Assembly: GCA_003511165.1 (NCBI GenBank)
Contig: DOJW01000008.1
Span: 106,010-170,009, forward strand
Length of the DNA stretch: 64,000 nucleotides
Direction: 5' to 3'
From: Candidatus Babelota bacterium
GTDB taxonomy: Bacteria > Babelota > Babeliae > Babelales > UBA12411
The notes under the pieces were generated by a model. The model ran no database searches. It was not told where the DNA came from and saw only the letters and a program-made list of their open reading frames with translations. How positions within the stretch are numbered: the first letter of the stretch is position 1; each line of letters starts with the position of its first letter. The position numbers and the translations under genes were made by a program. Shown piece after piece: positions 232 through 50,844 of this stretch.

Positions 232-1908
232 ATGAAACAGCTTTTAAAAATTACATTTTTATCATTATTTATATCAATTTTTTTTATAAACGTAGAATGT
301 ACTAATGGTGGTTTAGTCGATTTAAACAACAGCAAAATAGAAACATCTATCACTCGACTAGCCGGCCAACTAAAATTAGATGGACAACCAACCCAAAATG
401 CACTTGAAAAAGTAGAATTCACATTGCGCTTACTCGAAAAGTCTCAACAATCTTCCGATGCTTCACAATTTCAGCAAGAAATTTATTCCTCGTTACATCC
501 ATATTTAGCAAATTTAGCTCGCACCACAATGTTTAATGATGAGTACCAAAAGAATATAGATTTAATCGAAAAACTATTTAATACAGAATGTACAATCGAA
601 GAAACTGGAGAAATTAAAAAACCTTTTAGATTTCCACTAATTTATTCCCTACTTGCTTTAACAAAAATAACTTTAGAAAATCCAGAATCTTATGAACAAA
701 TAAATTTATTAAAAAATAAAATTTCTATTTTTTTTAAAAATGCTTACTATCGAAACAAAAAAAAACTACATGCAAATCATCCCCCAATTACACTTAATGA
801 TATTTATCACCTTATTAATATAATTTATGAACAATTACCAACAGATAATTCACCTTCTCTTCTCAATCCAACAAATTGGAACTGGAATTATGTAGCTTGT
901 GGTGTTGCTGCTGTTTGTACAATTGTTTTAACAGTTTTTATAGTAAGAACCTTAAATAAAGTAGATATTGCTTCCAATAATTTTAGCCATTCTTTAAAAA
1001 ATATTGATAGATCTCTTGGTAATCCAGAAAATCCTACATCGGGAACATTAGCAAAAGTTTCGAGCGACTTTAGTCTTTCTCTAGAAAAATTTAATAAAGC
1101 ATTAGGCGACAGTGAACATCCAGCAAGAAACACGCTTGCGCAAGCAATTGCAGATTTTTCACAATCACTGCGCAATGTTGATAGGTCACTTGGAGATCCA
1201 GAACATCCAACCTCAGGAACTTTGGCAAAAGCTTCTAGCGATTTTAGTAGTTCTTTAGAAAAACTAAACAAATCTTTAGGAGACAGTGAACATCCAGCAA
1301 GAAACACACTTGCTCAAGCAATTTTCGATTTTTCACAATCACTACACAATGTTGATAGATCACTTGGAGACCCAGAACGCCCTACTCGCAATACACTCGC
1401 ACTTTCTCTTGAAAAATTAGATGCAACTTTAGATACAGTTCAAAGAACTTTAGGTCAATCCGAAGCTCCAGATCAAACTCTGGCACAAAATCTTCAAGCT
1501 TGCCGTGAAACTATGCGACAGGTACAAGATGTTATTGGACATCCACAAGGACAAGGAAGAGGAACACTTGCAGATACCTTAGGAAGTGTTGCTGATTTTG
1601 CAGATCAAGGCGCAGCGAGAGCCGCAAGACCTTATTGGGCGCAAGATGTAAGGAGAAGGGGTAGCCAAAATCCTGATGGAGCATCAAGCTTAGCCCCAAA
1701 ACCTGCTCAACCAATTCCACCCACATCACCAAGTCCTACCGCAAGAGCATGTTCAAGTTCAAGTGACGGCTCTTCATCAGTGGGAAGTCACTCTGACGCA
1801 GAACCTCGTGGAAGTTTTCTTAGTCGGCTAGGAGGCCGTGTAGCAGATGTTTTAATGCCAACACCAGATTCTATTGAAGAAAAACCAAAGACCGAAAAAC
1901 GTGATTAA
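232..1908 (+). CDS. hypothetical signal-peptide/TM protein with internal 29/58-aa tandem repeats and a Pro/Ser/Gly/Arg-rich tail
   Basis: 558-aa ORF. Hydrophobic N-terminus (ITFLSLFISIFFINVEC), internal TM (VACGVAAVCTIVLTVFIV), repeats LG-x-x-E-x-P-x-x-x-TLA...DFSxSL. No family recognised. Confidence 0.7.
   Translation: MKQLLKITFLSLFISIFFINVECTNGGLVDLNNSKIETSITRLAGQLKLDGQPTQNALEKVEFTLRLLEKSQQSSDASQFQQEIYSSLHPYLANLARTTMFNDEYQKNIDLIEKLFNTECTIEETGEIKKPFRFPLIYSLLALTKITLENPESYEQINLLKNKISIFFKNAYYRNKKKLHANHPPITLNDIYHLINIIYEQLPTDNSPSLLNPTNWNWNYVACGVAAVCTIVLTVFIVRTLNKVDIASNNFSHSLKNIDRSLGNPENPTSGTLAKVSSDFSLSLEKFNKALGDSEHPARNTLAQAIADFSQSLRNVDRSLGDPEHPTSGTLAKASSDFSSSLEKLNKSLGDSEHPARNTLAQAIFDFSQSLHNVDRSLGDPERPTRNTLALSLEKLDATLDTVQRTLGQSEAPDQTLAQNLQACRETMRQVQDVIGHPQGQGRGTLADTLGSVADFADQGAARAARPYWAQDVRRRGSQNPDGASSLAPKPAQPIPPTSPSPTARACSSSSDGSSSVGSHSDAEPRGSFLSRLGGRVADVLMPTPDSIEEKPKTEKRD
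1000..1610 (+). repeat. in-frame coding tandem repeat, 174-nt period (units start 1000, 1174, 1348), each unit made of two 29-aa half repeats; decays after about 1350
   Basis: aat-(a/g)tt-gat-ag(a/g)-tc(t/a)-ctt-gg recurs at 1000, 1174 and 1348. Protein units NIDRSLGNPENPTSGTLAKVSSDFSLSLEKFNKALGDSEHPARNTLAQAIADFSQSLR and NVDRSLGDPEHPTSGTLAKASSDFSSSLEKLNKSLGDSEHPARNTLAQAIFDFSQSLH. Confidence 0.9.
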
Positions 1909-1927: not shown

Positions 1928-2566
1928 ATGAAAAAAGGATCATTAGAAGTAATTTGCGGATCAATGTTTTCTGGAAAAACAGAAGAGTTGATGCGCAGGC
2001 TTAGACGAGCAGAATTTGCAAAACAAAACATTTTAACTATAAAACATAAGATTGATGTACGAAAAAGTTACGAATGCATAGTTTCTCATAACGGAGCCAA
2101 AAGAGAAGCTTTTGCTTTCGACGGTACAGTGCAATGTCTTGAAAAAATATTAAAGCTTTCAGAAGGTCATGAAGTGGTTGGACTGGACGAAATACACTTT
2201 TTCATCCCACAGATAATAGAAACCATCAAAGCATTAGTCGACAACGGGAAAAGGGTCATTATCGCTGGATTAGACATCGACTTCCGTGGAGAACCATTTG
2301 CAATAACAGCTACACTCCTTGCAATCGCAGACGAAGTAACAAAACTAAAAGCAATTTGCGTCAAATGCGGAAAAGATGCAAAACACAATCAACGAATAAT
2401 CAATGGTAATCCTGCAAAATATGATGATCCTATAATTTTAGTTGGCGCTGAAGAATGTTACGAAGCTCGATGCCGCGACTGCTTTGAAATCGAAAAACCT
2501 GCTAAAGATTCCTCAATAAATATTTTCCCATCAAGCAAAACAAAAATAACAGAAAATGAAATCTAG
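1928..2566 (+). CDS. tdk: thymidine kinase
   Basis: P-loop MFSGKTEEL, VVGLDEIHFF, GLDIDFRGEPF, C-terminal zinc motif CVKCG...CRDCF. AAGGAG RBS upstream. Confidence 0.93.
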   Translation: MKKGSLEVICGSMFSGKTEELMRRLRRAEFAKQNILTIKHKIDVRKSYECIVSHNGAKREAFAFDGTVQCLEKILKLSEGHEVVGLDEIHFFIPQIIETIKALVDNGKRVIIAGLDIDFRGEPFAITATLLAIADEVTKLKAICVKCGKDAKHNQRIINGNPAKYDDPIILVGAEECYEARCRDCFEIEKPAKDSSINIFPSSKTKITENEI

Positions 2567-3908
2567 CAAATCACAGTTCAACTGCACAAATTGCGGCTAT
2601 GTAAGTATAAAATGGGCCGGTTGCTGTCCCGGATGCAATGAATGGAATAGCTTTGTAGAAAAAACAATAGAGCAAAAGCAAGAAGGTTTTAAAAGCAAAA
2701 TACACACCACATCAAAAGCAAATCTATATACCCTAAACACCATTCAAACAGTTAGGCAAGAGCGAATCGTAGCTGGAATAAAAGAGTGGGACCGCGTCCT
2801 CGGTGGCGGAATATTTCCTGGATCATTTTTGATTTTAACCGGCGACCCTGGAATAGGAAAATCTACTCTGCTTTTGCAAATCGCAAACAAAATAGCCGCA
2901 ACGCACAAAGTACTATATTTTTCTTCTGAAGAATCTCTTGAGCAGGTCAAAAACCGCGCAATGCGATTAAAATGTCACAATGAACATTTACTTTTTTCAG
3001 ATCAAGCATCAATGGAAAAAATCCTCACAACAGCGGTTGACGAAAAACCAGATCTTTTGATTCTCGATTCTATCCAAAACTGTTATTTCGAAAAATCAGA
3101 AACAATTCCAGGTACCATCGGACAACTTCGCGAATCTAGCTTTCACCTCATGAAACTTGCAAAAGAAAATAATATCGCTGTACTCGTCACAGGGCACATC
3201 ACAAAAGATGGATATATGGCCGGTCCAAAATTGCTCGAACACATGGTAGATGGATTATTTTATCTGCAAGGTGAAGATCGCTGGCAAACAAGAGTTTTGC
3301 GCGCGATGAAAAATCGTTTCGGCGCTATAAATGAAATTGGTTTTTTTGAAATGCAGGAACATGGACTTTCAGAAATCACAGACATAAATAAATATCTTTT
3401 AAATAATTCTACACCCGCAGCAGGAAGTGCTTTAATCACATGCATCGAAGGGACACGTCCATTGATTTTGGAATTACAATCACTTTGCGTTGCATCCAAA
3501 TTTGGAATTCCACAGCGAGTTGTTAGCGGAGTTGATCCCAAACAGATCGTACTTATTGCGGCAATACTCGAAAAATATTTGAAAATCAGACTTAGTGGTT
3601 ATGACATATTTTTCAAAGTTAGTAGCTCCTTTAAAATCAAGGAAGAAGGAAGCGATCTTGGAATAGCTCTTGCTCTGCTCTCCAGTTATTTCCAAAAACC
3701 ATTGCCGCAAAAATCAATCTCTATCGGCGAAATTAGTTTAACCGGACAAATAAAACCATGTACACAGCTTGAGCACCGCGTAAAAGAAGCAGAAAAATTT
3801 GGAATTGAAACCTTATTTTTGTCCGCACTACAAAAACCAAAAACAAGTTGCAATGTTGTATCGTTCAAACACATTTATGAACTGTTGAATTTGTTTCCAG
3901 AAGAATGA
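2556..3908 (+). CDS. radA: DNA repair protein RadA/Sms
   Basis: N-terminal zinc finger FNCTNCGYVSIKWAGCCPGCNEWNSF, Walker A GDPGIGKSTLLLQ, KNRFG motif, Lon-like C-terminal domain. Overlaps tdk by 11 nt. Confidence 0.93.
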   Translation: MKSSKSQFNCTNCGYVSIKWAGCCPGCNEWNSFVEKTIEQKQEGFKSKIHTTSKANLYTLNTIQTVRQERIVAGIKEWDRVLGGGIFPGSFLILTGDPGIGKSTLLLQIANKIAATHKVLYFSSEESLEQVKNRAMRLKCHNEHLLFSDQASMEKILTTAVDEKPDLLILDSIQNCYFEKSETIPGTIGQLRESSFHLMKLAKENNIAVLVTGHITKDGYMAGPKLLEHMVDGLFYLQGEDRWQTRVLRAMKNRFGAINEIGFFEMQEHGLSEITDINKYLLNNSTPAAGSALITCIEGTRPLILELQSLCVASKFGIPQRVVSGVDPKQIVLIAAILEKYLKIRLSGYDIFFKVSSSFKIKEEGSDLGIALALLSSYFQKPLPQKSISIGEISLTGQIKPCTQLEHRVKEAEKFGIETLFLSALQKPKTSCNVVSFKHIYELLNLFPEE

Positions 3909-3924
3909 AATTCTATCTAAAATT

Positions 3925-3965
3925 TTGAAATAAAAAAGAGGGAATTTTTACATTCCCTCTAAATT
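3925..3965 (-). terminator. rho-independent terminator for the ankyrin gene (stem AGAGGGAAT 3937-3945 / ATTCCCTCT 3952-3960, T-run on minus strand); copy 1 of a 41-bp repeated module
   Basis: Perfect 9-bp stem, 6-nt loop, flanked by aaaaaa (a T-run when read on the minus strand). The same 41 bp recurs at 6883-6924. Confidence 0.7.
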
Positions 3966-3992
3966 GTGAATTCGCTTATGGATGATTTACGA

Positions 3993-5090
3993 TCAAACGT
4001 GAAGTTTATTTAAAACTTTTCTTCTTATAATTTCTTCCCTTAGCAACTGAGCGCAATCTTCATGTCCCTCAGCAACCGCAATATAAAGAGGCATCATGCC
4101 GTCATCATCTTTTACTTCGATATTTGCCCCTACATTAATTAAAGTCTGAGCGCAATCTGCATGCCCACTTCCAACGGCAACATGAAGAGGCGTCATGCCA
4201 TTATTAGCTTTTACTTCGATATTTGCCCCTGCGTTAATTAATGCTTCAGCACCACCTACTTTACCAAAACAAACCGCAATAAGAAGCGGCGTTGCGCCGG
4301 TCTCATTTTTTGCATCAATATTTGCTCCAGCATTTATTAAAACCCTAACACAATCTGCATATCCCACAGCATAATGAAGCGGTGTCGAACCATCTAGATC
4401 TTTTGCTTCAATATTTGCCCCTGCATTAATTAACGACTCAACACAACCTGCCTGACCAGTTGTAACTGCAGCATGAAGAGGCGTTGCGCCTTTATCTGTT
4501 TTTGCTTCAATATTTGCCCCTGCACTAATTAATGCCGAAACCCAATCTGCACGACCTAGACAAACAGCGACATGAAGCAATGTCGCGCCGGTCTCAGTTT
4601 TTGCTTCAATATTTGCCCTCGCTTTAATTAATGCCTTAATACAACCTGTGTGACCTAGAACAGCAGCAAGTTGAAGCGGTGTCATGCCTTTATCTGTTTT
4701 TGCTTCAATATTTGCCCCTGCATTAATTAATGCCTGAGCACAATCTGCATAACCAAGAGAAACAGCGAGATGCAAGGGCGTTAAATCAGCCATAACAAGG
4801 TTCTGATTTGCAAGATGCCCCTGCAACAAAAAGTTAGGATTTACAATCCTAGCTTGTAGTAAAAAATTTAATCTTCTCGTATCATCCAATTTTATTGCTT
4901 TTTCAATCGAAAACTTTACAATTTCTCTAAGCTCGGCCAATCTTTCCTCACTATGAGCTGCTGCTTGCAACTCAAGATCAATGATTCGATCTTCTCTAAC
5001 CCCCAAAGATCCATCTCCCGCATTTAGCGTCATTCCCTCAAAAGCAATTAACGATAATGTAATAAACAACATTTTCTTAATAAAATTCAT
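3993..5090 (-). CDS. secreted ankyrin-repeat protein (about 8-9 ANK repeats), paralog of 8483..9268
   Basis: N-terminal signal MNFIKKMLFITLSLIAFEGMTLNAGDG. Repeated G-x-TPLH-x-A...LINAGANIEAK blocks with 99-nt periodicity. Ends ...NKLHV. Confidence 0.9.
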   Translation of the reverse strand: MNFIKKMLFITLSLIAFEGMTLNAGDGSLGVREDRIIDLELQAAAHSEERLAELREIVKFSIEKAIKLDDTRRLNFLLQARIVNPNFLLQGHLANQNLVMADLTPLHLAVSLGYADCAQALINAGANIEAKTDKGMTPLQLAAVLGHTGCIKALIKARANIEAKTETGATLLHVAVCLGRADWVSALISAGANIEAKTDKGATPLHAAVTTGQAGCVESLINAGANIEAKDLDGSTPLHYAVGYADCVRVLINAGANIDAKNETGATPLLIAVCFGKVGGAEALINAGANIEVKANNGMTPLHVAVGSGHADCAQTLINVGANIEVKDDDGMMPLYIAVAEGHEDCAQLLREEIIRRKVLNKLHV

Positions 5091-5136
5091 AATTTCTCCA
5101 ATATCTAATTATTAAGTTTAAAAATATACAAATTAA

Positions 5137-5165
5137 ACCCTATCAAATCTTGAAAATAATTACAA
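5137..5165 (-). promoter_or_regulatory. candidate sigma70-type promoter of ankyrin gene 1 (TTGTAA-N17-TAGGGT on minus strand)
   Basis: -35 at 5160-5165 and -10 at 5137-5142. The equivalent TTGCAA-N16-TAGGAT is conserved upstream of the paralog at 9322-9349. Confidence 0.3.
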
Positions 5166-5261
5166 ATGGGGTAATGTCGGCAGTGTGAAAACATTGATTT
5201 TCATAGTTTTTTATAAAATTCAAATCAAAAACATACAAAAAACTCAAATTTCGATGAATTA

Positions 5262-5377
5262 AAAAATTTGGAATTGAAACCTTATTTTTGTCCGCACTAC
5301 AAAAACCAAAAACAAGCTGCAATGTCATATCGTTCAAACACATTTATGAATTAATGAATCTATTTCCAGAAGAGTAA
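5262..5377 (+). pseudogene. orphan duplicate of the radA 3' end (last 37 codons plus stop)
   Basis: Manual alignment to 3793-3908 shows about 10 substitutions and no indels. Encodes KFGIETLFLSALQKPKTSCNVISFKHIYELMNLFPEE* versus radA ...NVVSFKHIYELLNLFPEE*. No upstream radA body. Confidence 0.85.
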
Positions 5378-5569
5378 AAAACTTGTAAATTCCAACTATT
5401 TTTAATCAAAAATCAAAACTCTGCATACTTTTCAAACTCGATCTGATAACATTTCTAAATATCGCTTTACGGATCGGAATTTGGATTTCCGATTTGTAAG
5501 CATAAATAAAGTTAAATTTAATTAATAATACAGGCTTTAATATTTGGATATTTGTTTGTACGCAGTGCC

Positions 5570-5595
5570 ATTGTCACCCTCGCATGGGCGACAAT
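5570..5595. repeat. isolated GC-rich hairpin element (ATTGTCACCC-tcgcat-GGGCGACAAT) in AT-rich spacer
   Basis: 10-bp stem with one mismatch. Its composition contrasts sharply with the surroundings. Similar in style to the GC-rich elements at 50462-50510, 51073-51106 and 51318-51351. Confidence 0.5.
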
Positions 5596-5710
5596 ACCGT
5601 ATCAATCATAGATAGAAATTTGTAACATGCTTTATTCAAAAATTAAAGCTAAAAATAATTAAATTTAACTCACACTAAAGTAAGTAAAACTATAAAATTT
5701 AGGAGATTTT

Positions 5711-6877
5711 ATGATATCAAGAGAATTAACTACAGAATTAAAAGCAACCGCAAAACAGTTTCCCGTCGTTGCCGTTTTAGGCCCAAGACAATCGGGTAAA
5801 ACAACGCTTGTAAAAAACACATTCAAAAAATACAACTATGTAACGCTTGAAGATTTAGATAAAAAACAAATGGCGGAAACAGATCCGCGCTCTTTTTTGG
5901 AATCAAATAAAAATGAGCACGGTCTAACCTTGGACGAAGTACAGCTTACCCCAAATCTTTTTTCGTATATCAAAACATATGTTGATTCACACAAAGGAGC
6001 TGGGCAATTTATACTAACCGGATCACAAAATTTTTTATTAAACGAAAAAATCTCGCAATCACTTGCAGGAAGAGTTGCAATTTTAACACTCTTACCTCTG
6101 TCATACACTGAACTAGAAAAAGCAAAGCTTCTAAGCAATAAAATTGATAAAACTCTTTATTTCGGGTTTTATCCAAGAATTTGGAACGAAAAAATCCCAC
6201 CACAAAAATGGTACAAAAACTATATTCAAACATACATCGAACGCGATGTAAGAAATTTAAGAAATGTTGAAAATTTAAGTTTGTTCCAACAATTCATAAA
6301 ACTATGCGCGGGTAGAATTGGACAAGTTTTAAACCTTGCATCACTAGGAAATGATTGTGGAATTACAGCAAATACAGCACGCTCATGGATTTCTCTTTTA
6401 GAAAGTAGTTATATAATCCACCTTTTACGTCCACATTATAAAAACTTCAGTAAAAGATTAATCAAAGCTCCAAAGCTTTATTTCTACGATGCAGGACTTG
6501 CTTGTTCTCTACTTGAAATAGAAAATGAAAAACAATTAGCCACGCATTACTTGCGCGGAAATCTATTCGAATCTTTTGTAATTTCAGAATTAATCAAAAA
6601 ACAGTATAACCAGGATAAAAGACCTAACGTCTACTTTTGGCGCGACAGCCTAGGACATGAAGTTGATTGCATAATTGAAAAAGGACAAGAACTAATTCCG
6701 CTTGAAATCAAAATCGGCAAAACAATAAATCCTAGTTTCTTTGACGGTTTACACTATTGGAATGAATTAGCAGGCGAAAAATCTCAAAATGGAGTTTTAA
6801 TTTATGGCGGTGATGAAAAAGTTAAACATCAGGGAATTAAAATTTTAGGATGGAAATTTTTGAAAAATATTTCTTGA
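5711..6877 (+). CDS. AAA-type ATPase with C-terminal DUF4143-like region (AAA_14/DUF4143 family ATP-binding protein)
   Basis: Walker A GPRQSGKTTL near the N-terminus, LDEVQ Walker B-like motif, and the length and layout typical of this family. AGGAG RBS. Confidence 0.75.
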   Translation: MISRELTTELKATAKQFPVVAVLGPRQSGKTTLVKNTFKKYNYVTLEDLDKKQMAETDPRSFLESNKNEHGLTLDEVQLTPNLFSYIKTYVDSHKGAGQFILTGSQNFLLNEKISQSLAGRVAILTLLPLSYTELEKAKLLSNKIDKTLYFGFYPRIWNEKIPPQKWYKNYIQTYIERDVRNLRNVENLSLFQQFIKLCAGRIGQVLNLASLGNDCGITANTARSWISLLESSYIIHLLRPHYKNFSKRLIKAPKLYFYDAGLACSLLEIENEKQLATHYLRGNLFESFVISELIKKQYNQDKRPNVYFWRDSLGHEVDCIIEKGQELIPLEIKIGKTINPSFFDGLHYWNELAGEKSQNGVLIYGGDEKVKHQGIKILGWKFLKNIS

Positions 6878-6882
6878 AATCT

Positions 6883-6924
6883 TTGAAATAAAAAAGAGGG
6901 AATTTTTACATTCCCTCTAAATTT
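6883..6924 (-). terminator. rho-independent terminator (stem 6895-6903 / 6910-6918); copy 2 of the 41-bp module seen at 3925-3965
   Basis: ttgaaataaaaaagagggaatttttacattccctctaaatt is identical to the copy after radA. It sits between convergent genes 5711..6877 (+) and 6956..8254 (-). Confidence 0.7.
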
Positions 6925-6955: not shown

Positions 6956-8254
6956 TTATTCTCTTCCTGGAATATAAGTTGACCCTGGAAGATGAACTCC
7001 TTGACATGCCGCCAAAGTCCAATCAAATTGCGCATCTTCTTGATACTCTTGAATTTTATGTTCTTTATTCACAGATTGTTCTTGTTTTTTATCGTCTTTG
7101 TTCTCTGATTTTTTTTGATCAGGATTTTGTGATTTATTCACCATTTTCTCTGTGTTTTTAGGCTTTGAACCTACATGATTATCCTTACATATTTTTTCAT
7201 GTACAAAAACTGAATAATTCTCTTTTTTAGGTACAGATAACACATTAACTTGTGTAATATTAGAAGTCTTTTTTTGTGACGCAATACAATCTCGCAATTT
7301 TATTATCTCTTGCAATTCTCTTTCTTTTTTATATTCGTTAGACGATCTAATCAATTGAATGCATTTTTGAAGCTGCTGCAGATACCGCTCTGCTTTCAAA
7401 GAAGTCTGTTGGTCTGCTAATTGATTTGCAATAGCTTTTATATCTTCAAGGTTTATTCGTAAAGTAGATCTATAATTTCTATCTCCTCCCAAAAATTGTA
7501 ATGCGTTAAGCAAAGGAAAATCATCATAATTAAATTGAGAATCTTTGAGATAAAAATTCAAATCCATTACAACTTTTTTTGAAAAATCTTGCTCAACTTG
7601 CTTTAATGAATTCCTGTTTTGTTCAATCAATTTTTTGGTTTCTTCGATCTGCATGTCTCTTCTTTTAGCAGCTAATGCTTTTTGTAAATCATCTTCGTTT
7701 ATCGCGTTTAATTTAGATAGCAATAAATTGACTTTCCCTTTTAAAGTTGTAAATTCGTTCAATAATTCTGCTTTACGCTCAGAACTAAAACTTAACTCTG
7801 TTAACTCTTTTTGCAAATCATCAAAAACAGATAAATCTAAAGAATCTTTTAAAGACTTAAAGTCTTTAATTTTTGCCAAAGCGGTAACAATTTCATCAAA
7901 TGGCTTTAAATTCCTATCCTTACCAATAGCAGCTGCATAAATAGCTTCATAAACAGAAATTTTACTATCAAGGCTCCATTGAAACGCGGATCTTTTTCGT
8001 GCTTTAAGATGTTGACATGCTTGAATTTTATGTATCAACCAAGCCGAAATAATAATAACTTGCACCCCTCCAACAATAGCCATTTCTCTTGGATAATTTT
8101 TTACGATTTGCCTTAGCCACGCAGAAGGAATGATAGCTAGCGTTTTTGCACGTTCACTTATATTTTGTAAGCAATCGACACTTTTTATATTAGAATTTAC
8201 AAAGAATGCACTTATCCCTAAAACTAAAACAAGTGACTTAATTGCCTTATTCAT
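6956..8254 (-). CDS. hypothetical signal-peptide/TM coiled-coil protein with Lys/Glu/Gln-rich C-terminus
   Basis: 432-aa ORF. N-terminal MNKAIKSLVLVLGISAFFVNS, second hydrophobic segment MAIVGGVQVIIISAWLI, long heptad-like charged regions. No family recognised. Confidence 0.65.
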   Translation of the reverse strand: MNKAIKSLVLVLGISAFFVNSNIKSVDCLQNISERAKTLAIIPSAWLRQIVKNYPREMAIVGGVQVIIISAWLIHKIQACQHLKARKRSAFQWSLDSKISVYEAIYAAAIGKDRNLKPFDEIVTALAKIKDFKSLKDSLDLSVFDDLQKELTELSFSSERKAELLNEFTTLKGKVNLLLSKLNAINEDDLQKALAAKRRDMQIEETKKLIEQNRNSLKQVEQDFSKKVVMDLNFYLKDSQFNYDDFPLLNALQFLGGDRNYRSTLRINLEDIKAIANQLADQQTSLKAERYLQQLQKCIQLIRSSNEYKKERELQEIIKLRDCIASQKKTSNITQVNVLSVPKKENYSVFVHEKICKDNHVGSKPKNTEKMVNKSQNPDQKKSENKDDKKQEQSVNKEHKIQEYQEDAQFDWTLAACQGVHLPGSTYIPGRE

Positions 8255-8400
8255 AAAACCCCACTTAAATTAAATTTAACAACTAAAATGATTCAATTAA
8301 AATAATGCTGCCCTAAGGGCTTTATTAAGTCAAAATAAATTTTATGATATTTATAGAAAATGCGAATTTTATAATGTAAATTTATTTGTAATTTCAAATT

Positions 8401-8457
8401 GAAAACAAAACAAGGGTTATATTTTAAAGGCGTAAAAAATATCTTTAAATATAACCC
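8401..8457 (-). terminator. rho-independent terminator of ankyrin gene 2
   Basis: Stem GGGTTATATTT(T)AAAG 8414-8429 / CTTTAAATATAACCC 8443-8457, followed on the minus strand by ttgttttgttttc. Confidence 0.65.
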
Positions 8458-8482
8458 GTTTATTTATTTGAATAATTTACAA

Positions 8483-41921: not shown

Positions 41922-42160
41922 AAAAAATCCCGCTAAATTTTTATTATGAAATTGCGCAGTTGATTTTAAGAAATCAAAAAGTTGAAAGTAAAGGATAAAA
42001 ATAAAAAATCGGTAAAACTTTATTTAAAAGCTTTATCTCAAAAACTCAAAAAAGCTCCTAAACTATTATTATTATTATTATTTTCTTGATTTTTTCATCC
42101 CATTTTTTCTAGAAAAGATAAGGTAGTTAACTTTTAATTTTTAAAAAAGGAAAGACATAA

Positions 42161-45100
42161 ATGAAAGTTTCAAAAATTATAGTTTTAGCTTTGTTTATCG
42201 GAAGCATTTTGGGAAATATACGAATTAAATGCGGGGAAGAAGAAGAAGCAATATCCCGTGCAATTGCAAATATACAAAAAAACTACGACGACGAAATATT
42301 AAAACCATATGAACACAATTTAGAAGTTAATCTTAAAGCGATTAAAGAAATAGAAGGCAATATTAAACAAACTAAAAGCAATCTTGAAAAATCACAATCA
42401 CAAGATTCAATTGAATATCATAAATCACAACTGGTTGATCATGAAAAACGTCTTGAAAACGCAATAAAAATATACCTCGATACCATAGAAATTTTTTTAA
42501 AAAACGCAGAAAGTAGAAAAAATCTAATACTAGACGAAATAGCATATCATATCCAAAGAATAGCTAACCTTACACTACGCAAAGAATTAGACCTAAAACT
42601 AAAATTAGAAACAGATCAAATCACAGAAACAATAAGTAAAAAAAGAGCTCAACTTGAGGAAGAGATTAGACTCATACAAGAAGAAGCTAAACGCCTTAAA
42701 GAAGAAATTAAAATTGCAATCGAAAAAAAACAAAAAGAAGATGAACTCGCAAAAGAAAAAGCTAAAATTGAAGCTGAAGCTAAACAAAAAGAAGATGAAA
42801 CTACCTTGGGAAAACAAAAAAATATATTTAGAGATAATATACGCCTTCATTATTTTAAAATCGCTTGTGAAATACTTTCGGAAATAGAAAGTAAAAACCA
42901 AACTAATGATTTTTTTAAATCTATTTGGGACCCTTCTTTTGACATCAACTCAAAAGATAAAGATGAAAACACAATATTAATTGTTGCTGCGATGCATGGC
43001 CTTGATAAATTCGTTACATTTTTACTCGAAAATGGTGCTGATGCAAATGTAAAAGGAGAATATGAGAGAACGGTCTTCTTCTACCTTAACACTAAAAATA
43101 TTGCAATCATTTTGATTGATTGGTTGAAAAAAAATGGTTTAAATCCTGCTGAATATTTGAATGACCGAGACCTCGATGGAAATACGCCTTTAATGGTTGC
43201 AGCAATGCATAGTGCAACTGAGTCACTAAAAATTTTACTAGATAATGGCGCAAATATTAACGCAAGGAATAACGCTGGCCGCTCTTTTCTTCATTTTATT
43301 TATGCAAATCCAAAAGGTATTAGTTATTGGATCGAAATAGCCAAGACTACTGAGCTAACACCAACATTACCAACAATTGATGAATACTATCGAACCCCTC
43401 TATACTGCGCTTTAGAAGAAGGAGAAGATGTAACACAATTCACAAAAGAATTAGAAAAACAAAATGCTCCACTGTTTGGCACCAATAGCGAAGGTCAACC
43501 GGTCTTCCCATATGCTACAAATAATCCTGCTATTTTGGTTAAAGCATTAACCGAAGCTGTGCAAAAACAAAGTAGCATGGACGAGGAATCTCAGCAGCGT
43601 ATTTTGGGTGAAATTCTACTACCTTCAATTTTATTTCAACACCAAGTCTGTCTACCCCTTATAATAAAAGATCCAAAATTACTGCAAAATACTAAAAAAC
43701 TATTTAAAGAATTTGCACCTAAAAGAGTTGATGATTTTTTTGAAAAAACTATTAACGATGCTAAAAAGAATATTCCTCAAGTTCCTTTGCATCATTTAGC
43801 TATATTTATAGATAAAGATGATGAATGGGATGTCACTAATAAAGCTATGAGCGTAAAACTTACATCAATGCTTAAACAAGCAGGCACACCATGTCTCGTT
43901 ATAGGTGGCCATGTACTAAAACATGCGGCCACAAACCTGCATAAAGAAAAATTCGATTTTGAAAAAAACTTTTATTTTTTTACAATCAATGATGATAAAT
44001 TTTTTCCTGTTCTTGTTATTCCTAAAAATTATGCCGCAAGAAATGTAAGCGATAAATCTCTAATAAATTTGTCAAATTTATCTTGGCTAAGATCTTTAGG
44101 TTTTAACCCTAAAAATTTGGTTCATAAAAAATTTGCCAATATCGACTTCAGTAAAGAGCAAATAATTCCAACTAAAGAATTTGGGGAAAAAACTATTAAT
44201 CTGGTTAAAAATGTTTTGACTAATGTTAAAGAACGTGGACGAATTGTATATGTAAGCGGACATGGATATAGTTATATTCGACAAAAAATAGATACTATTT
44301 ATGAGCGTGCGGTAAACTTACCTTTAAACGCATTTTTTGATTTAATTAGAGAGTTAGAAGAAAAAGGCACATTGTTCACACACGTTTTAACATGTTACAT
44401 GGGGGGTGACAATTTATCAGCTTTGGAAAAAGTTATGATAAATGATTTTTACAATACAACGCTTGCAACTATGCTGGATACCCATCAAAAAACAAAAAGC
44501 ACTACTTCCGAAACTCATAATAAAATGTTTTTATCTGTTGCATCAACAGCAGATGTCTCAACAAGCGGAGACGTTGATACAAATTTATTCTTCCCAGCTG
44601 TCGATACGTTTTTCAACTTATTACGATCTGACGCAGTAAAAGATATGATGCCAAATCTATTTACTTGGCTTACAAGAATGTTTAGAACCGTTGGCGTTCG
44701 TAGAGATATTGTGAATTATCCACAAATCAGAATACCTGGTAATCAAACATCATTTTATCTTGCAGATATCCATGGAGACTTACAAATAATCAATAGAATG
44801 AACACCATGCAAGATCGCTTCACAATCGCACAAAAAGGGGATAAAAAAGTAGTTAAAATCAATAAACCAAAAGATATTGTCGTTACAAACAAAAATGTTT
44901 TGGTAACGTACATCGACCATGTCGAAAACAAAGTAATAATCGAAGATAAGGTACCTGTAATACTTGCCATGGGAACTAATGAATATTTCAGAACATTCAG
45001 TGAAATATTTGTAGACATACCTGAAATGGATTTTTTTAATTTTGCTTACAACAGTTTCTACCCTGCAGATTTTGGCGAAGAAATGGGTCATCGCGAAACT

Positions 45101-45781
45101 TATTTAATGAAAAAACTCACTTTTGCAAATGAAGATATTTTTGAAGATATTGATGTTCCACAAGAAATTGCTTCACAAAAACCACAGACTTTATACAACG
45201 TTTATCTCAAAAGAGGATTAGAAGAAAAAGCTGCTGTTATTTTTTCACTCGGACAAAATCCTACTGACGATGTTTTTGAGATAAATGAAGATAAAGTTGT
45301 AAGAAAACTCGAAGGCGAAGAGAAAGAACTTTATTTAGCTAGAGTTTCGGCAATGCAGGCAGAAGTTGGTCACTACTTTAGTCCACTAGAAGAAAAGCTT
45401 CTAAAAAATAGCGCTCTATTCTTACAAGAAAATAAACAAGATTTGGCAAAAGTATTTAAAACCGCATTAGTAAAAAGTGTTGTTTTGAGTGGAAGAGATT
45501 GCGATAAATTATTGTTATCATATTTAAAACTTCTTGATACAACTACAGATGAAGAAATATTAACTTCGCTCAAAGAACTTCTTCCTTTTTTGATGCAAAA
45601 TTACAAAGAAATTCCATCATGGACACTGCTTGAAAAAATGAAATTTGTAATTTTAAGTTTCAAAGAACTAAAAAAGGAAACAGTCGAAACTTTCGAAAAA
45701 ATAATAGATAAACTTTTTGAATTCGATGAGAAAAATAAAAAAGCATTAAAAGATCTACTAAAGAAAATTACAGTTAAATAA
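42161..45781 (+). CDS. giant secreted protein A: signal peptide, Glu/Lys coiled coil, ankyrin repeats, clan CD-like His/Cys domain, helical C-terminus
   Basis: 1206 aa. MKVSKIIVLALFIGSILG; ANK blocks DENTILIVAAMHGLDKFVTFLLENGADANV and DGNTPLMVAAMHSATESLKILLDNGANINA; RIVYVSGHGYSY (His701, nt 44261-44263) and FTHVLTCYMGG (Cys745, nt 44393-44395). Confidence 0.85.
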   Translation: MKVSKIIVLALFIGSILGNIRIKCGEEEEAISRAIANIQKNYDDEILKPYEHNLEVNLKAIKEIEGNIKQTKSNLEKSQSQDSIEYHKSQLVDHEKRLENAIKIYLDTIEIFLKNAESRKNLILDEIAYHIQRIANLTLRKELDLKLKLETDQITETISKKRAQLEEEIRLIQEEAKRLKEEIKIAIEKKQKEDELAKEKAKIEAEAKQKEDETTLGKQKNIFRDNIRLHYFKIACEILSEIESKNQTNDFFKSIWDPSFDINSKDKDENTILIVAAMHGLDKFVTFLLENGADANVKGEYERTVFFYLNTKNIAIILIDWLKKNGLNPAEYLNDRDLDGNTPLMVAAMHSATESLKILLDNGANINARNNAGRSFLHFIYANPKGISYWIEIAKTTELTPTLPTIDEYYRTPLYCALEEGEDVTQFTKELEKQNAPLFGTNSEGQPVFPYATNNPAILVKALTEAVQKQSSMDEESQQRILGEILLPSILFQHQVCLPLIIKDPKLLQNTKKLFKEFAPKRVDDFFEKTINDAKKNIPQVPLHHLAIFIDKDDEWDVTNKAMSVKLTSMLKQAGTPCLVIGGHVLKHAATNLHKEKFDFEKNFYFFTINDDKFFPVLVIPKNYAARNVSDKSLINLSNLSWLRSLGFNPKNLVHKKFANIDFSKEQIIPTKEFGEKTINLVKNVLTNVKERGRIVYVSGHGYSYIRQKIDTIYERAVNLPLNAFFDLIRELEEKGTLFTHVLTCYMGGDNLSALEKVMINDFYNTTLATMLDTHQKTKSTTSETHNKMFLSVASTADVSTSGDVDTNLFFPAVDTFFNLLRSDAVKDMMPNLFTWLTRMFRTVGVRRDIVNYPQIRIPGNQTSFYLADIHGDLQIINRMNTMQDRFTIAQKGDKKVVKINKPKDIVVTNKNVLVTYIDHVENKVIIEDKVPVILAMGTNEYFRTFSEIFVDIPEMDFFNFAYNSFYPADFGEEMGHRETYLMKKLTFANEDIFEDIDVPQEIASQKPQTLYNVYLKRGLEEKAAVIFSLGQNPTDDVFEINEDKVVRKLEGEEKELYLARVSAMQAEVGHYFSPLEEKLLKNSALFLQENKQDLAKVFKTALVKSVVLSGRDCDKLLLSYLKLLDTTTDEEILTSLKELLPFLMQNYKEIPSWTLLEKMKFVILSFKELKKETVETFEKIIDKLFEFDEKNKKALKDLLKKITVK

Positions 45782-45788
45782 AGATTAA

Positions 45789-45825: not shown

Positions 45826-45879
45826 TAAGTTCATAAATACTAATTAAATATAAAAACTTCTGCTCTCTAAAATACCACA

Positions 45880-45946: not shown

Positions 45947-48900
45947 AAAATGTCCCACTAAATTTTTATTATGAAATTGCGCAGTTGATTTTAAGAAATT
46001 AAAAAGTTGAAAGTAAAGGATAAAAATAAAAAATCGGTAAAACTTTCTTTTAAAGCTTTACCTTTAAAACTCAAAAAAGCTCCTAAACTATTATTATTAT
46101 TATTATTATTTTCTTGATTTTTTCATCCCATTTTTTCTAGAAAAGATAAGGTAGTTAACTTTTAATTTTTTAAAAAGGAAAAACATAAATGAAACTTGCA
46201 AAAATTATAGTTTTAGCTTTGTTTATCGGATGTATTTTGGGAAATATACAAAGTGCGAATGGTGATATTGAAAAGCAAATAAATCAAAGGGTTGAACAAA
46301 TTCAAAAAGATTACGAAGCTGCTCTAAAACACAATGAAGAATATTTAAAACGCTATGATGAACCAATAAAACGATATGAAAATGAAATAAAACAAATAAA
46401 AATCAAACTTGAAAAAGTTAAATCAGAATTTGGATCTCTTTGGGGCGAAGAATATAAATCGCAATTAATTTACGCTGAAAAACATCTCGAAGATACAAAG
46501 ACTGATCGCATAAAAACAAAAGAACTACTATTACAACAAGCAAAAGCTCATAAAAAATCCGCCGAAAAAGAATTAAAAGAAGATATTGAAAGACATGCTC
46601 GCGGAATACAATTCGAAGAATTTAGATTAAGAGAACAAGCAGAAGATGCCGCTCGAATAGAAGCAATAAGAAAAGAACAAGCAAAACTTGAAGAAGAAAG
46701 AAAACTCCGAGAAGAAGCTAGACTCAAAGAAGAAGCAAAAAAACTAGAAAAAGAAAAAGAAGAAAAACAAAATCCATTTAGAACAGAAATAAAAAAGCAC
46801 AACTTTGAAGGAGCGTTTGAAATTTTGAAAGAGATAGATCCTAAAAATCAAACTAATGACTTTTTCAAATCTGTTTGGGATGGTTCTGTTGATATTAACG
46901 CAAAAGACGAAGAAGGACAAACAGCTTTAGGATTTACAGTAAGTTATGGAAATAGCAATTTACTTTCTTTTTTACTCGATAATGGCGCAGATATTAATGC
47001 GAAAGATGGTTACGACAACACTGTATTTTTTCACATTGGAAATAAAAACATTGCAGAAATTTTAATCAATTGGTTGAAAAAAAATGGTTTAAACCCTGCT
47101 GAATATTTAAATGCAAAAAATCTCAATGGAGATACTCCATTTATCAATACTGTTGCAAGGAAACAAAATTCTGATCTTTTAATATATTTATTAGAAAATG
47201 GAGCAAGTATTGATACAAGAAACAACAATGGTCAAACAATCCTGCATTTTGCTAATGACAATCCAAATCAAATTGAATTTTGGACAAAAGTTACACAAAG
47301 CGCGCAAATAGCCAATATCTTATCGTTCATAGATGAATACTCAAGAACACCGCTTTATACCGCACTAGAAGAAGATGAACCTGTTAAAAAAAATGCACCA
47401 AAATTTGCAGCCGCACTTGAAAAACAAAACGCACCACTGTTTGGAACTAATAATGAAGGTCAACTAGTCTTTCCATATGCTACAAATAATCCTGCTATTT
47501 TAGTTAAAGCATTAACCGAAGCGATGCAAAAGAAAAGTAGCATGGACGAAGAATCTCAGCAGCGTATTTTGGGTGAAATTCTACTACCTTCAATTTTATT
47601 TCAACACCAAGCCTGTCTACCTCTTATAATGAAAGATGCACAGCTACTGAAAAAGACTCGCGAATTATTCAGAGAATTTGAACCCAAAAGAGTTAATGAT
47701 TTTTTTGAAAAAACTATTAACGATGCTAAAAAGAATATTCCTCAAGTTCCTTTGCATCATTTAGCTATTTTCATTGACCAAGATGGCGAATCACATGGAC
47801 CAAGAGCAGTAAGTTTGAATCTTGTAAGAATTCTTCAAAATAAAAAAGAGCCTTGTCTTATCTTCGGTAAACATTTATTATTTAATGCTGACTTTATAAG
47901 AAAAGCAGATAAAATCGATTTGGATTTAGAAAACAGTTTTCATTTTTTCATTGTTAATAATAATCAATCCGCTGTGCTTATCATCCCAAAAGAATATATA
48001 AAAAGTTTTATCCCTTCTACAATAAAATTATCAGATATTGCTATTCTTAGATGGCTAGGGTTTAACCCGCAAAGCTTAACTCACAAAAAATTTTCAAAAA
48101 TAGATTTAAAGACAAAAAGCGATATCTCTGCTGATGAATTTGGCAAACAAACTGTCGAATCGATAAAAAATGTTTTGACCAACGTCAAAGAGCGTGGACG
48201 GATTGTTCAATTAGAAGGTCATGGCTGGAGTTATTTAAGGCAAAGAAAAAACCCTACAAATGCTATCGCTGTAAATCTTTCTCTACCTTACTTTTTAGAT
48301 TTGATTAGAGATCTAGAAGAAAAAGGCACACTGTTCACATATGTTCTAACTTGCTACATGGGAGGCGATAATTTATCCGCTTTGGAAAGGGTTATGATCA
48401 ATGATTTTTATAATACTGAACTTGCTAAGATGCTGAATGCTCACCAAAAAACAAAAAGTGCTACTCCCGAAACTCACAATAAAATGTTTTTATCTGTTGC
48501 ATCAACTGCAGATATATCAACAAGTGGAATGGTAGATACCAATTTATTTTTCCCAGCTGTCGATACGTTTTTCAATTTATTAAAATCTGACGCAGCAAAA
48601 GATATGACGACCAATTTATTTGCCTGGATTACAAGAATGTTTAGAACCGTCGGAGTTTTAAGAGATATAGTCAATTATCCACAAATTAGAATCCCTGGCA
48701 ATCAAACATCATTTTACCTTGCAGATATCCATGGAGACTTACAAATAATCAATAGAGTAAACAGTATGCAAGATCGCTTCATAATAGTGCAAGAAGGAGA
48801 TAGAAAAGTAGTTAAAGTCAATAAGCCAAAAGATATTGTCGTTGCAAACAAAAATGTTTTGGTAACATACATAGATCATGTCGAAAACAAAGTAATAATC

Positions 48901-49794: not shown

Positions 49795-50343
49795 ATGAAT
49801 AAGTTAAATAAAATACTGTTTACAATGGTTGCAACGCTAATGTTTTCAAGTTATCCAATCAGCGCTCAAAGACAAATAACAACTATAGTAAAAGTAATAA
49901 ATAAGACACAATATGAAGCTCACATCTCATGTCTATGTGGAGATGGTTCTGTAGAAAAAGTAGTTTTACCACAAAGTGAAATGTCTGTGTATGGTAGATA
50001 TGATATATCTATGAAGTTCGACATGCCTATATTTCAGATTATTGGTGTTTCACGATGGGTACCAGTATCAAACCGCTCCATATATTCGTATTTATCTCTT
50101 GATAAAAATGGTGAAACAATTGAAGAAAATTTAATTAAAGAAACTCGAAAGATCATAGCGCTTGATGAAGGAAGAGGCAAATTGCTTACTGATTGGAACG
50201 AATGTTTATATATATCAAAAGCTGCCATCTTGATTATTGATTGTGATGGAAGTTTACATATAAAGGAATATGCAGTACTTGATGATCAAAAAGATCTTGA
50301 AGGACTATCCCAAGCTCAGACAATTTTACACGGAATAGATTGA
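49795..50343 (+). CDS. small secreted hypothetical protein S1 (paralog of 51537..52019)
   Basis: Signal MNKLNKILFTMVATLMFSSYPISA; ITTIVKVINKTQYEAHIS...; ends TILHGID. The 25-nt leader is identical to that of S2. Confidence 0.7.
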   Translation: MNKLNKILFTMVATLMFSSYPISAQRQITTIVKVINKTQYEAHISCLCGDGSVEKVVLPQSEMSVYGRYDISMKFDMPIFQIIGVSRWVPVSNRSIYSYLSLDKNGETIEENLIKETRKIIALDEGRGKLLTDWNECLYISKAAILIIDCDGSLHIKEYAVLDDQKDLEGLSQAQTILHGID

Positions 50344-50563: not shown

Positions 50564-50839
50564 CTACTTTTTATCCCTGTTTGCTAATGCTTGCCATCCC
50601 CCTGAAATAAGTAATTCCTTTTTTACTCGAGTCCATTTTTTCATTTGTCTTTCTGCCATAAGCGCTTCATATCTAGTAGCAAAGGCTTGTGTAAAGACTA
50701 TCTGAATTGGAAGTCTTGAACTTGTATACCCACTATACTTTCTAAATTTATGTTCCGAAATTCTTTTTTCAAGATTATCAGTATGCCCTATGTAGTAGGA
50801 ATTATCATCACATTTGAGTATGTAAACATAAAATGACAA
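50564..50839 (-). CDS. GIY-YIG nuclease superfamily protein (UPF0213/YhbQ-like), apparent TTG start
   Basis: (M)SFYVYILKCDDNSYYIGHTDNLEKRISEH (GIY...YIG motif), ...RQMKKWTRVKKELLI. AGAAGG RBS 7 nt before the TTG. Confidence 0.85.
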   Translation of the reverse strand: MSFYVYILKCDDNSYYIGHTDNLEKRISEHKFRKYSGYTSSRLPIQIVFTQAFATRYEALMAERQMKKWTRVKKELLISGGWQALANRDKK

Positions 50840-50844
50840 CGTAT

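What the first reader, a model, noticed from the sequence alone, without database searches (positions are those of the whole stretch)
3793..5377. Ankyrin cassette flanked by a direct duplicate of the radA 3' end whose differences are mostly synonymous
Seen: 3793-3908 (the true radA end) and 5262-5377 align without indels and differ at about 10 positions. Eight of these are silent in the radA frame. The two replacements are conservative (V to I, L to M). The orphan copy keeps an in-frame stop (TAA versus TGA). Between the copies lie only a terminator and ankyrin gene 1 with its promoter region. Inference: a neutrally decaying in-situ duplicate should not be this biased toward silent changes. 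One copy probably evolved as part of a functional radA in a related genome and arrived with the insert. This is the logic of islands that target gene 3' ends and carry a replacement end. No integrase is present, so the mechanism is unknown. It could be homologous recombination with foreign DNA or an integrase encoded elsewhere. The AAA/DUF4143 gene (5711-6877) then lies between the orphan radA end and the second copy of the radA terminator module (6883-6924). That arrangement suggests a nested second insertion.
Basis: partly seen in the sequence, partly recalled or inferred. Interest (0 to 1): 0.6.

Follow-up and report, generated by a model that had tools for sequence, protein, structure and literature searches.

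The report
Orphan radA gene-end copy beside ankyrin gene
In an uncultured TM6 (Dependentiae) bacterium, a 118-base copy of the end of the DNA-repair gene radA lies 1.5 kb past the real gene end; its mostly silent differences show that part of it once ended a working radA, but it looks like a recombination scar in a variable gene neighbourhood, not a new kind of mobile island.

Summary
3793-3910 and 5262-5379 align without gaps and differ at 10 bases: 7 synonymous, one stop-to-stop, V>I and L>M. Two facts are new. All 10 differences lie in the last 63 nt, and the first 55 nt are identical (P about 0.001). A simulation in which the orphan decays neutrally gives 8 or more silent changes with P 0.0005-0.017. 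The "selected in a working radA" inference therefore holds.

The "3'-end-targeting island" reading is not supported:
- None of the 47 ORFs of at least 150 aa is an integrase or transposase.
- The ankyrin gene has a diverged paralogue, with homologous flanks, 4 kb away.
- The terminator copies share 42 identical bases.

The diverged stretch lies between identical flanks (55 nt and 42 nt). In the orphan copy it adjoins the AAA/DUF4143 gene, a candidate defence gene (PADLOC PDC-S01) with different neighbours in every relative. My best model has two events: a recent local duplication of "radA end + terminator" around the ankyrin cassette, and a homologous-recombination import of a foreign allele.

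No relative closer than 79% RadA identity exists, so empty sites cannot be checked. Interest is modest.

The parts
2556..3908 (+). radA (450 aa), intact. tk-radA synteny is conserved across Babeliales; the downstream region is not.
3793..3847 (+). R_A 5' block: 55 nt identical to 5262-5316.
3848..3910 (+). R_A 3' block: last 20 codons, TGA stop and 2 nt. Differs from the orphan at 10 positions, 8 of them silent.
3919..3965 (.). T1 terminator module. The hairpin is 3937-3960, and 3924-3965 is identical to 6882-6923. It is terminator-like on the minus strand (for ank1); there is no T-run on the plus strand.
3979..5251 (-). ank1 cassette: ankyrin-repeat gene 3993..5090 (365 aa) with about 14 nt of 3' flank and 161 nt of upstream region. 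All of it is homologous to the ank2 cassette 8469-9435 (69-81% nt identity, 49% aa identity).
5252..5261 (.). 10 nt of unassigned filler at the junction between the ank1 upstream region and the orphan copy.
   Evidence: and direct reading
5262..5379 (+). R_B, the orphan copy of the last 113 nt of radA coding sequence, its TAA stop and 2 nt. There is no ORF upstream. It carries Met at a position that is L, I, F or V in 109 RadA homologues.
5380..5710 (.). 331-nt spacer upstream of the AAA gene. It contains a long imperfect hairpin or inverted repeat at 5510-5670. No Rfam match, no coding remnant, no homology to other AAA loci.
5711..6877 (+). AAA_14 + DUF4143 (PD-(D/E)XK-type) ATPase gene. Matches PADLOC candidate defence family PDC-S01 at E = 4e-108. 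Accessory gene with different neighbours in every relative.
6877..6923 (.). T2 terminator module, hairpin 6895-6918. Terminator-like on both strands. It serves the convergent AAA (+) and 6956..8254 (-) genes.
6956..8254 (-). Hypothetical 432-aa gene with no family match; the right-hand neighbour of the structure.
8469..9435 (-). ank2 cassette (gene 8483..9268, 261 aa), the paralogue of ank1 with homologous flanks. It has its own, different terminator hairpin at 8398-8473.

Best explanation
The locus holds two copies of a small module, 'last 118 nt of radA - 13 nt - terminator hairpin'. Copy 1 (3793-3965) is the real gene end. Copy 2 is split: the orphan radA end (5262-5379), then 1.5 kb of spacer plus the AAA/DUF4143 gene, then the terminator (6882-6923). 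The ankyrin cassette lies between the two copies.

I propose two recombination events and no integrase.

Event 1 (inferred): a recent local duplication of the roughly 173-nt module arose when a copy of a resident ankyrin-family cassette was placed just after the radA terminator. This was an illegitimate or duplicative join, with 10 nt of filler at 5252-5261. It explains why the first 55 nt of the radA end and 42 nt of the terminator are identical in both copies.

Event 2 (inferred): the block between those identical flanks differs between the copies. It is 76 nt in copy 1. In copy 2 it is 63 nt plus the spacer and the AAA gene. One version is an allele from a related lineage in which that radA end belonged to a working radA. 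It entered by ordinary homologous recombination, with crossovers in the flanks. It most likely came in together with the horizontally mobile AAA/DUF4143 candidate defence gene. This explains why the differences cluster and are silent.

Shown: the repeat, its mosaic structure, the selection signature, the absence of a recombinase gene, the paralogy of the ankyrin cassettes, and the mobility of the AAA gene. Inferred: the order of the events, which allele is foreign, and the joining mechanism.

One consequence: recombination across the 55-nt identical block would delete the ankyrin gene and leave an intact chimeric radA (V>I, L>M). Excision of e14 does the same to icd.
For: - Mosaic structure: 0 differences in 55 nt, 10 in 63 nt, 0 in 42 nt. 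Clustering P = 0.0013. Fisher test of the 3' block against the other repeat segments, P = 0.0011.
- Silent bias beyond the neutral-orphan null: P = 0.0005-0.017. Nine of 10 differences are transitions.
- Module boundaries are sharp, with no further homology in any flank.
- ank1 and ank2 are paralogous cassettes whose non-coding flanks are only 69-81% identical. They are therefore older than the R and T duplication.
- AAA/DUF4143 has homologues of 55-75% identity across many phyla, on viral contigs, and with different neighbours in eight Dependentiae loci. It matches PADLOC PDC-S01.
- In L067 a 72%-identical AAA gene is bracketed by two identical 44-nt copies of the upstream gene's terminator hairpin. 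The architecture there is 'gene stop + hairpin / spacer / AAA stop + same hairpin'.
- Only T2 keeps a plus-strand T-run, so the context of T2 looks like the original radA terminator.
- No integrase or transposase in the window.
Against: - The model needs two events, and no intermediate has been seen.
- No database genome has AAA/DUF4143 directly after radA, and none has a RadA ending in the orphan's I/M variant. The RadA cluster has a single member sequence; the next-best RadA is 79% identical; C-terminal fragments reach 70% at most.
- An import into the orphan copy would have had only 118 nt of homology on its left side.
- Met at the L>M position is absent from 109 RadA homologues. This could equally mean that the orphan has simply drifted.
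- The selection test rests on 10 sites.
- The enrichment of direct repeats around AAA genes is partly due to dispersed repeat families.
Confidence: 0.4

Rival explanations
1. An e14/icd-type element. A small non-autonomous island (replacement radA end + terminator + ankyrin gene) integrated by site-specific recombination into the radA 3' end, using an integrase encoded elsewhere. The 55-nt identical block is the att core, R_A is the element-borne replacement end, and R_B is the displaced original.
For: The architecture and the substitution pattern almost match icd/icdC: 10 of 12 silent against 8 of 10 here. Homology starts abruptly at 3793/5262 and is followed by an identical stretch. radA stays intact.
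Against: No integrase, excisionase or transposase in the insert or in any of the 47 ORFs in 64 kb. The 'island' terminator T1 shares 42 identical bases with the resident T2, although the adjacent coding block is 16% diverged. The cargo has a local paralogue with homologous flanks. No empty site is known.
Confidence: 0.15
2. A one-step merger of two alleles. A fragment or circle from a sister lineage, carrying 'radA end - terminator - ankyrin gene', recombined through the 55-nt identical block. This could be Campbell-type, unequal, or homology-facilitated illegitimate recombination. The recipient chromosome already carried 'radA end(b) - AAA - terminator', so the two alleles ended up in tandem.
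For: A crossover inside the identical 55 nt reproduces the observed order in one step. The 10-nt filler at 5252-5261 fits an illegitimate join. The silent-biased 3' block fits two alleles that were both functional.
Against: The sister lineage would have to be identical in the 55-nt and 42-nt flanks, yet different in what follows the terminator. A diverged block between those flanks would still need an earlier import. No such sister allele has been sampled.
Confidence: 0.2
3. A purely in-situ tandem or segmental duplication of [radA end - terminator - ankyrin - upstream region]. The orphan then decayed neutrally, was partly refreshed by gene conversion from radA, and the AAA and 432-aa genes were inserted later. 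The silent bias is chance.
For: The repeated modules are collinear in both copies (R, T, ank, upstream). The junction 'ank upstream | R' is what a tandem duplication makes. Tandem duplications occur elsewhere in the window.
Against: The null is rejected at P = 0.0005-0.017. Module divergences are very uneven: 0/55, 10/63, 0/42, against about 27-30% in the ankyrin flanks. Two separate conversion tracts would have to skip the 76 nt between them. The orphan has no indels.
Confidence: 0.1
4. An older, larger duplication included a whole second radA. Both copies stayed functional for a time and accumulated silent differences. The second copy was then deleted down to its last 118 nt.
For: It explains the selection signature without horizontal transfer.
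Against: No trace of further radA or tk sequence lies upstream of 5262. The identical 55-nt and 42-nt segments bracket the diverged block, which again needs extra conversion events. No relative has two radA genes at one locus.
Confidence: 0.08
5. An assembly artefact that merges two strain variants.
For: The source is a metagenome-assembled genome, and a 55-nt exact repeat could confuse an assembly graph.
Against: The same gene order appears in four NCBI assemblies and in JGI, ENA and Logan contigs built with different assemblers. The 12 contigs that carry RadA gave only one distinct neighbourhood.
Confidence: 0.02

Closest known systems
Prophage e14 in the 3' end of E. coli icd, with the displaced pseudogene icdC (Hill et al. 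1989, as cited in PMC13626634)
   Same: A direct repeat of a housekeeping gene's 3' end flanks the insert. The gene stays intact and the orphan copy has an in-frame stop. Differences are almost all silent: e14 has 12 in 165 nt, 10 silent plus 2 D>E; here there are 10 in 118 nt, 8 silent plus V>I and L>M. Recombination between the copies would give a chimeric but intact gene.
   Different: e14 carries intE and xisE, is 15 kb long, and has only an 11-nt identical core followed by evenly spread differences. Here there is no recombinase. The insert is 1.35 kb with one resident-family gene. The identical block is 55 nt, and a second duplicated module (the terminator) is interleaved with the first.
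Allelic replacement or insertion by homologous recombination with DNA from a related lineage, including homology-facilitated illegitimate recombination (my own knowledge of the transformation literature)
   Same: A diverged block bounded by identical flanks. Clustered, silent-biased polymorphisms lie next to an accessory-gene insertion. No dedicated recombinase is needed.
   Different: Such events normally replace sequence rather than leave both alleles in tandem. The donor has not been identified.
Integrase-less variable 'hotspots' between core genes that hold defence genes (my own knowledge; PADLOC candidate family PDC-S01 for the AAA gene)
   Same: A core gene (radA) is followed by a lineage-specific set of accessory genes: an ankyrin effector-like gene and a candidate defence ATPase-nuclease. 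Content differs in every relative.
   Different: Hotspots are defined from many related genomes. Only one species-level genome is available here.
Integron gene cassettes (ORF followed by an attC hairpin)
   Same: Single-gene units are followed by a repeated hairpin module (T1, T2; L067).
   Different: T has no GTTRRRY core sites (direct reading). No integron integrase (IntI) is present in the window. The first 'cassette' would be the core gene radA.

Membership tests
Gene-3'-end-targeting integrative element with replacement end (e14/icd type) | A direct repeat of the target gene's 3' end flanks the insert; the gene is intact and the orphan lies at the far side | tested here: met
   118-nt repeat at 3793-3910 / 5262-5379; the radA ORF is intact
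Gene-3'-end-targeting integrative element with replacement end (e14/icd type) | Differences between the two ends are mostly silent (both evolved as functional ends) | tested here: met
   8 of 10 silent; P = 0.0005-0.017 against the neutral-orphan null; e14 control 10 of 12
Gene-3'-end-targeting integrative element with replacement end (e14/icd type) | A site-specific recombinase (tyrosine or serine integrase) is encoded in the element | tested here: not met
   The insert holds only an ankyrin gene. Pfam finds no integrase, resolvase or transposase in any of the 47 ORFs of at least 150 aa in the window
Gene-3'-end-targeting integrative element with replacement end (e14/icd type) | Empty-site alleles exist in relatives or in the population | tested here: inconclusive
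   All assemblies of the species share the arrangement. The nearest relative has 79% RadA identity and an unrelated downstream region. A metagenome pattern scan returned nothing
Gene-3'-end-targeting integrative element with replacement end (e14/icd type) | The cargo is foreign to the resident genome | tested here: not met
   ank1 has a paralogue 4.2 kb away whose coding ends and non-coding flanks are homologous
In-situ tandem or segmental duplication with a decaying pseudogene fragment | The repeated modules are collinear and share a single junction | tested here: met
   Order R, T, ank, upstream in both copies; junction at 5252-5261
In-situ tandem or segmental duplication with a decaying pseudogene fragment | The modules have similar divergence (same age) | tested here: not met
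   0/55, 10/63 and 0/42, against about 27-30% in the ankyrin flanks
In-situ tandem or segmental duplication with a decaying pseudogene fragment | The orphan accumulates changes without regard to the reading frame | tested here: not met
   Monte Carlo P = 0.0005-0.017; no indels
Homologous-recombination import of a diverged allele | A diverged block is bounded by identical flanks | tested here: met
   Flanks 3793-3847 = 5262-5316 and 3924-3965 = 6882-6923; the block between them is diverged or heterologous
Homologous-recombination import of a diverged allele | A donor lineage carrying the imported allele can be identified | tested here: not met
   No RadA with the orphan-type end was found and no AAA gene lies next to radA in the databases. 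Sampling of close relatives is absent, so this is weak evidence against
Integron gene cassette | An attC site with conserved core sites, and an IntI integrase nearby | tested here: not met
   T has no GTTRRRY motif (direct reading); no integrase in the window
Homing-endonuclease-associated insertion | A nuclease gene (GIY-YIG, HNH or LAGLIDADG) lies within or next to the insert | tested here: not met
   No GIY-YIG remnant at 3909-5710. GIY-YIG genes occur only at the second orphan-end locus, 50.5-51.3 kb

The most novel reading that the evidence does not exclude
Dependentiae, and perhaps many other bacteria, may have integrase-less single-gene cassettes (ankyrin genes, AAA/DUF4143 candidate defence genes, small ORFs linked to GIY-YIG nucleases). 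These would insert right at gene 3' ends or terminators and generate long (about 30-220 nt) direct duplications of 'gene end + terminator'. They might be mobilised in trans by a nuclease such as the PD-(D/E)XK domain of the AAA/DUF4143 protein or a GIY-YIG enzyme. The radA orphan, the T1/T2 pair, the second orphan end at 50848-50874 and the hairpin duplication in L067 would all be footprints of one mechanism.
Probability: 0.1. Interest if true: 0.7.

Novelty: new member of a known kind. Interest (0 to 1): 0.3.

Why it matters
The finding gives a clean, statistically supported case, in a host-dependent candidate phylum with no genetics, of a housekeeping-gene end that carries the signature of having worked in another genome. 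This is evidence of recombination between related TM6 lineages at a variable locus that holds an effector-like ankyrin gene and a candidate defence gene. It also yields a testable prediction: recombination across the 55-nt identical block should delete the ankyrin gene and leave a chimeric but intact radA. It does not reveal a new mobile-element class. The same footprint is well known from e14/icd, and ordinary homologous plus illegitimate recombination can explain what is seen.

Tried and rejected
- Empty-site search. RadA relatives in 185,579 species genomes reach 66% identity at most. The 5.8-billion-protein set gives 79% at best, and that relative's downstream region is unrelated. A C-terminal fragment search with the orphan-type end gave 70% at most. 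A degenerate DNA pattern for the 5' block found nothing in the JGI metagenome collection, which evidently lacks this organism.
- Outgroup polarisation of the 10 sites. Synonymous sites are saturated at 71-79% aa identity. Only L>M could be called derived in the orphan.
- Codon usage to tell which end is native. Not discriminating. R_A has the rare CTG and TGA; R_B has the rarer GTC, GAG and CTA.
- Hypermutation as the source of the transition cluster. Rejected, because the directions are mixed.
- Hidden gene or RNA in the 5380-5710 spacer. No Rfam hit, no GIY-YIG or other coding remnant, no similarity to the spacers of other AAA loci.
- Extended homology beyond the repeat boundaries. None found.
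- T as a dispersed repeat. Only two copies in 64 kb.
- Literature on radA as an integration site. Nothing relevant found.
Full report
**What is there**

The window comes from an uncultured Dependentiae (TM6, Babeliales) bacterium. Its RadA is identical to proteins of candidate division TM6 bacterium GW2011_GWE2_31_21 and three other assemblies. radA (2556..3908) follows tk, as in most Babeliales. What follows radA differs in every relative examined.

3793-3910 and 5262-5379 align without gaps at 91.5% identity, and there are only two copies in 64 kb. There are exactly 10 differences. Seven are synonymous, one changes the stop TGA to TAA, and two are conservative replacements (V>I, L>M). Between the copies lie a hairpin terminator T1 (3919-3965), an ankyrin-repeat gene on the minus strand (3993..5090) and its upstream region. 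After the orphan come a 331-nt spacer, an AAA_14/DUF4143 gene (5711..6877) and T2 (6877-6923). Forty-two bases of T2 are identical to T1.

- All 10 differences lie in the last 63 nt; the first 55 nt are identical. The probability of this under uniform placement is 0.0013. The 3' block also differs from the remaining repeat segments by Fisher test, P = 0.0011.
- Nine of the 10 differences are transitions, in mixed directions.

I simulated the fair null model. The true end accepts only silent changes, the orphan accepts all changes, both receive equal mutational input, and runs are conditioned on 10 differences in the last 60 nt. Eight or more silent differences occur with P = 0.0005, 0.003, 0.006, 0.014 and 0.017 for transition/transversion ratios of 1, 2, 4, 8 and 16. 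The neutral in-situ model is therefore rejected at about the 1% level, although on only 10 sites.

As a positive control I measured the classic case. The E. coli K-12 icd end and the icdC pseudogene across prophage e14 differ at 12 of 165 nt. Ten of these are silent and two are D>E (see also PMC13626634). The two patterns are numerically almost the same.

One caveat concerns the orphan's Met. It sits at a position that is L (95), I (10), F (2) or V (2) in 109 RadA homologues and is never M. The orphan has therefore probably drifted a little since it lost function.

**Why it is not an e14-like island**

- Pfam scans of all 47 ORFs of at least 150 aa, and of the small ORFs near the structure, find no integrase, resolvase or transposase.
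- The 'cargo', ank1, belongs to a resident family. ank2 (8483..9268) lies 4.2 kb downstream on the same strand. Its signal-peptide end, C-terminal end and non-coding flanks are homologous to those of ank1 at 69-81% nt identity.
- The two terminator copies share 42 identical bases. The coding block 13 nt away from T1 is 16% diverged, with roughly half of its synonymous sites changed. A replacement end and terminator brought in from a foreign genome should not show that contrast.

**Structure of the locus**

The locus is best read as two copies of a module, 'radA end - 13 nt - terminator'. The two copies have identical outer parts: 55 nt on the left and 42 nt on the right. The block between these flanks is diverged or heterologous. 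In copy 1 it is 76 nt. In copy 2 it is 63 nt plus the spacer and the AAA gene, 1565 nt in all. Boundaries are sharp, and no homology extends into any flank. Only T2 keeps a plus-strand T-run, so its context looks like the original radA terminator.

**The AAA/DUF4143 gene is the mobile partner**

- Its homologues are 55-75% identical across Dependentiae, CPR (candidate phyla radiation) bacteria, Omnitrophota, Elusimicrobiota and Planctomycetota.
- It occurs on 22 IMG/VR contigs.
- It has different neighbours in all eight Dependentiae loci I fetched.
- It matches the PADLOC candidate defence family PDC-S01 at E = 4e-108.
- Its DUF4143 domain belongs to the PD-(D/E)XK nuclease superfamily (PMC3424549).
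- In L067 a 72%-identical homologue is bracketed by two identical 44-nt copies of the upstream gene's terminator hairpin. That is the same arrangement as T1/T2.

**Best model (confidence 0.4)**

I propose two events.

1. A recent local duplication of the roughly 173-nt 'radA end + terminator' module arose when an ankyrin-family cassette was placed behind the radA terminator. The join was illegitimate, with 10 nt of filler at 5252-5261.
2. The block between the identical flanks in one copy is an allele from a related lineage in which it ended a working radA. It was imported by homologous recombination with crossovers in the flanks. It most likely came with the AAA/DUF4143 gene, which it adjoins.

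This accounts for the mosaic structure, the silent bias, the identical terminators and the lack of a recombinase. It remains an inference, because no intermediate or donor has been sampled.

**Rivals**

| Model | Confidence |
|---|---|
| One-step merger of two alleles through the 55-nt block | 0.2 |
| e14-type element served by an integrase elsewhere | 0.15 |
| In-situ duplication with gene conversion and chance | 0.1 |
| Old duplication of a whole radA, later truncated | 0.08 |
| Assembly artefact | 0.02 |

The artefact is contradicted by four NCBI assemblies and by the 12 contigs carrying RadA, which gave only one distinct neighbourhood.

**Limits**

Comparative tests were not possible. Apart from the species itself, the closest RadA is 79% identical and sits on a 4-kb contig with an unrelated downstream region. 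The RadA cluster has one member sequence. C-terminal fragments reach 70% identity at most. The metagenome DNA collection does not contain this organism. I therefore cannot say which allele is native, nor the order of the two events.

**Broader lead, only partly followed**

The window holds a second orphan gene end. The tandemly duplicated large gene 46189..49743 keeps an intact end. After it comes a 1.1-kb insert that carries a small ORF (a paralogue of a gene 1.7 kb downstream) and a GIY-YIG nuclease gene. Then comes an orphan copy of the gene's last 27 nt, with the original terminator.

Across 52 AAA/DUF4143 loci from metagenomes, direct repeats bracket the gene in 8 cases, against 5 of 154 shifted control windows (P = 0.005). 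Some of these repeats belong to dispersed repeat families. A common integrase-less mechanism that duplicates 'gene end + terminator' is possible but unproven (probability about 0.1).

**Verdict**

The island interpretation is not supported. The structure is a new instance of a known footprint: an orphan gene end with silent-biased differences. It is most likely produced by ordinary recombination at a variable locus. Interest 0.3.

Noticed in passing
window 41854-50972 (orphan end 50848-50874; insert 49744-50847): A second orphan gene end. Tandemly duplicated, ankyrin-containing large genes lie at 42161..45781 and 46189..49743. Behind the intact end of gene 2 sits a 1.1-kb insert: ORF 49795..50343, a terminator, a GC-rich hairpin, and a GIY-YIG gene at 50564..50839 on the minus strand. 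Next comes an orphan copy of the gene's last 27 nt with an in-frame stop, then the original terminator and downstream sequence (89.6% identical to 45755-45878). The orphan is closer to the end of gene 1 (5 differences, 4 silent) than to the present end of gene 2 (7 substitutions plus a codon indel).
   Followed up: partly
L067 495-557 and 1867-1929; L079, L099, L115, L116, L139; window T1/T2: AAA_14/DUF4143 (PADLOC PDC-S01) genes are often bracketed by direct repeats of 40-220 nt at 91-100% identity. This holds in 8 of 52 loci against 5 of 154 shifted controls (P = 0.005). In L067 the repeat is the upstream gene's stop codon plus terminator hairpin. Some cases (L085, L068, L108) are dispersed repeat families, so the signal is only partly specific.
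   Followed up: partly
window 51072-51352: A truncated GIY-YIG ORF (51137-51274) is flanked by 35-nt inverted repeats (51072-51106 / 51318-51352, 97% identical). It looks like a small decayed mobile unit.
   Followed up: no
window 50455-50515; L068 140-400 and 1734-2070: GC-rich palindromic repeats of the type CCGTTCGCCCTGAGC...GTCGAAGGGTGCGAAC occur next to the GIY-YIG gene in the window and, in several copies, around the AAA gene of another Dependentiae contig. This is a repeat family shared between lineages.
   Followed up: no
window 5510-5670: A long imperfect hairpin or inverted repeat (arms about 41 nt, with a central hairpin ATTGTCACCC...GGGCGACAAT) lies in the spacer between the orphan radA end and the AAA gene. 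DNA fold z = -2.9. No Rfam match.
   Followed up: partly
window 980-1385 (gene 232..1908): Five 87-nt (29-aa) tandem repeats lie inside the 558-aa gene upstream of tk. GC content rises to 0.46 at the gene's 3' end.
   Followed up: no
window 13853..15839: Tandem paralogous DUF2608 genes, 67% nt identical over 750 nt.
   Followed up: no
window 3906-3908 and 6875-6877: radA and the AAA gene both end in TGA. Only 1 of 28 other genes counted in the window does so (TAA 22, TAG 5).
   Followed up: no
window 35592-35964: A tmRNA gene on the minus strand; tag peptide AGQYSAAQA.
   Followed up: no
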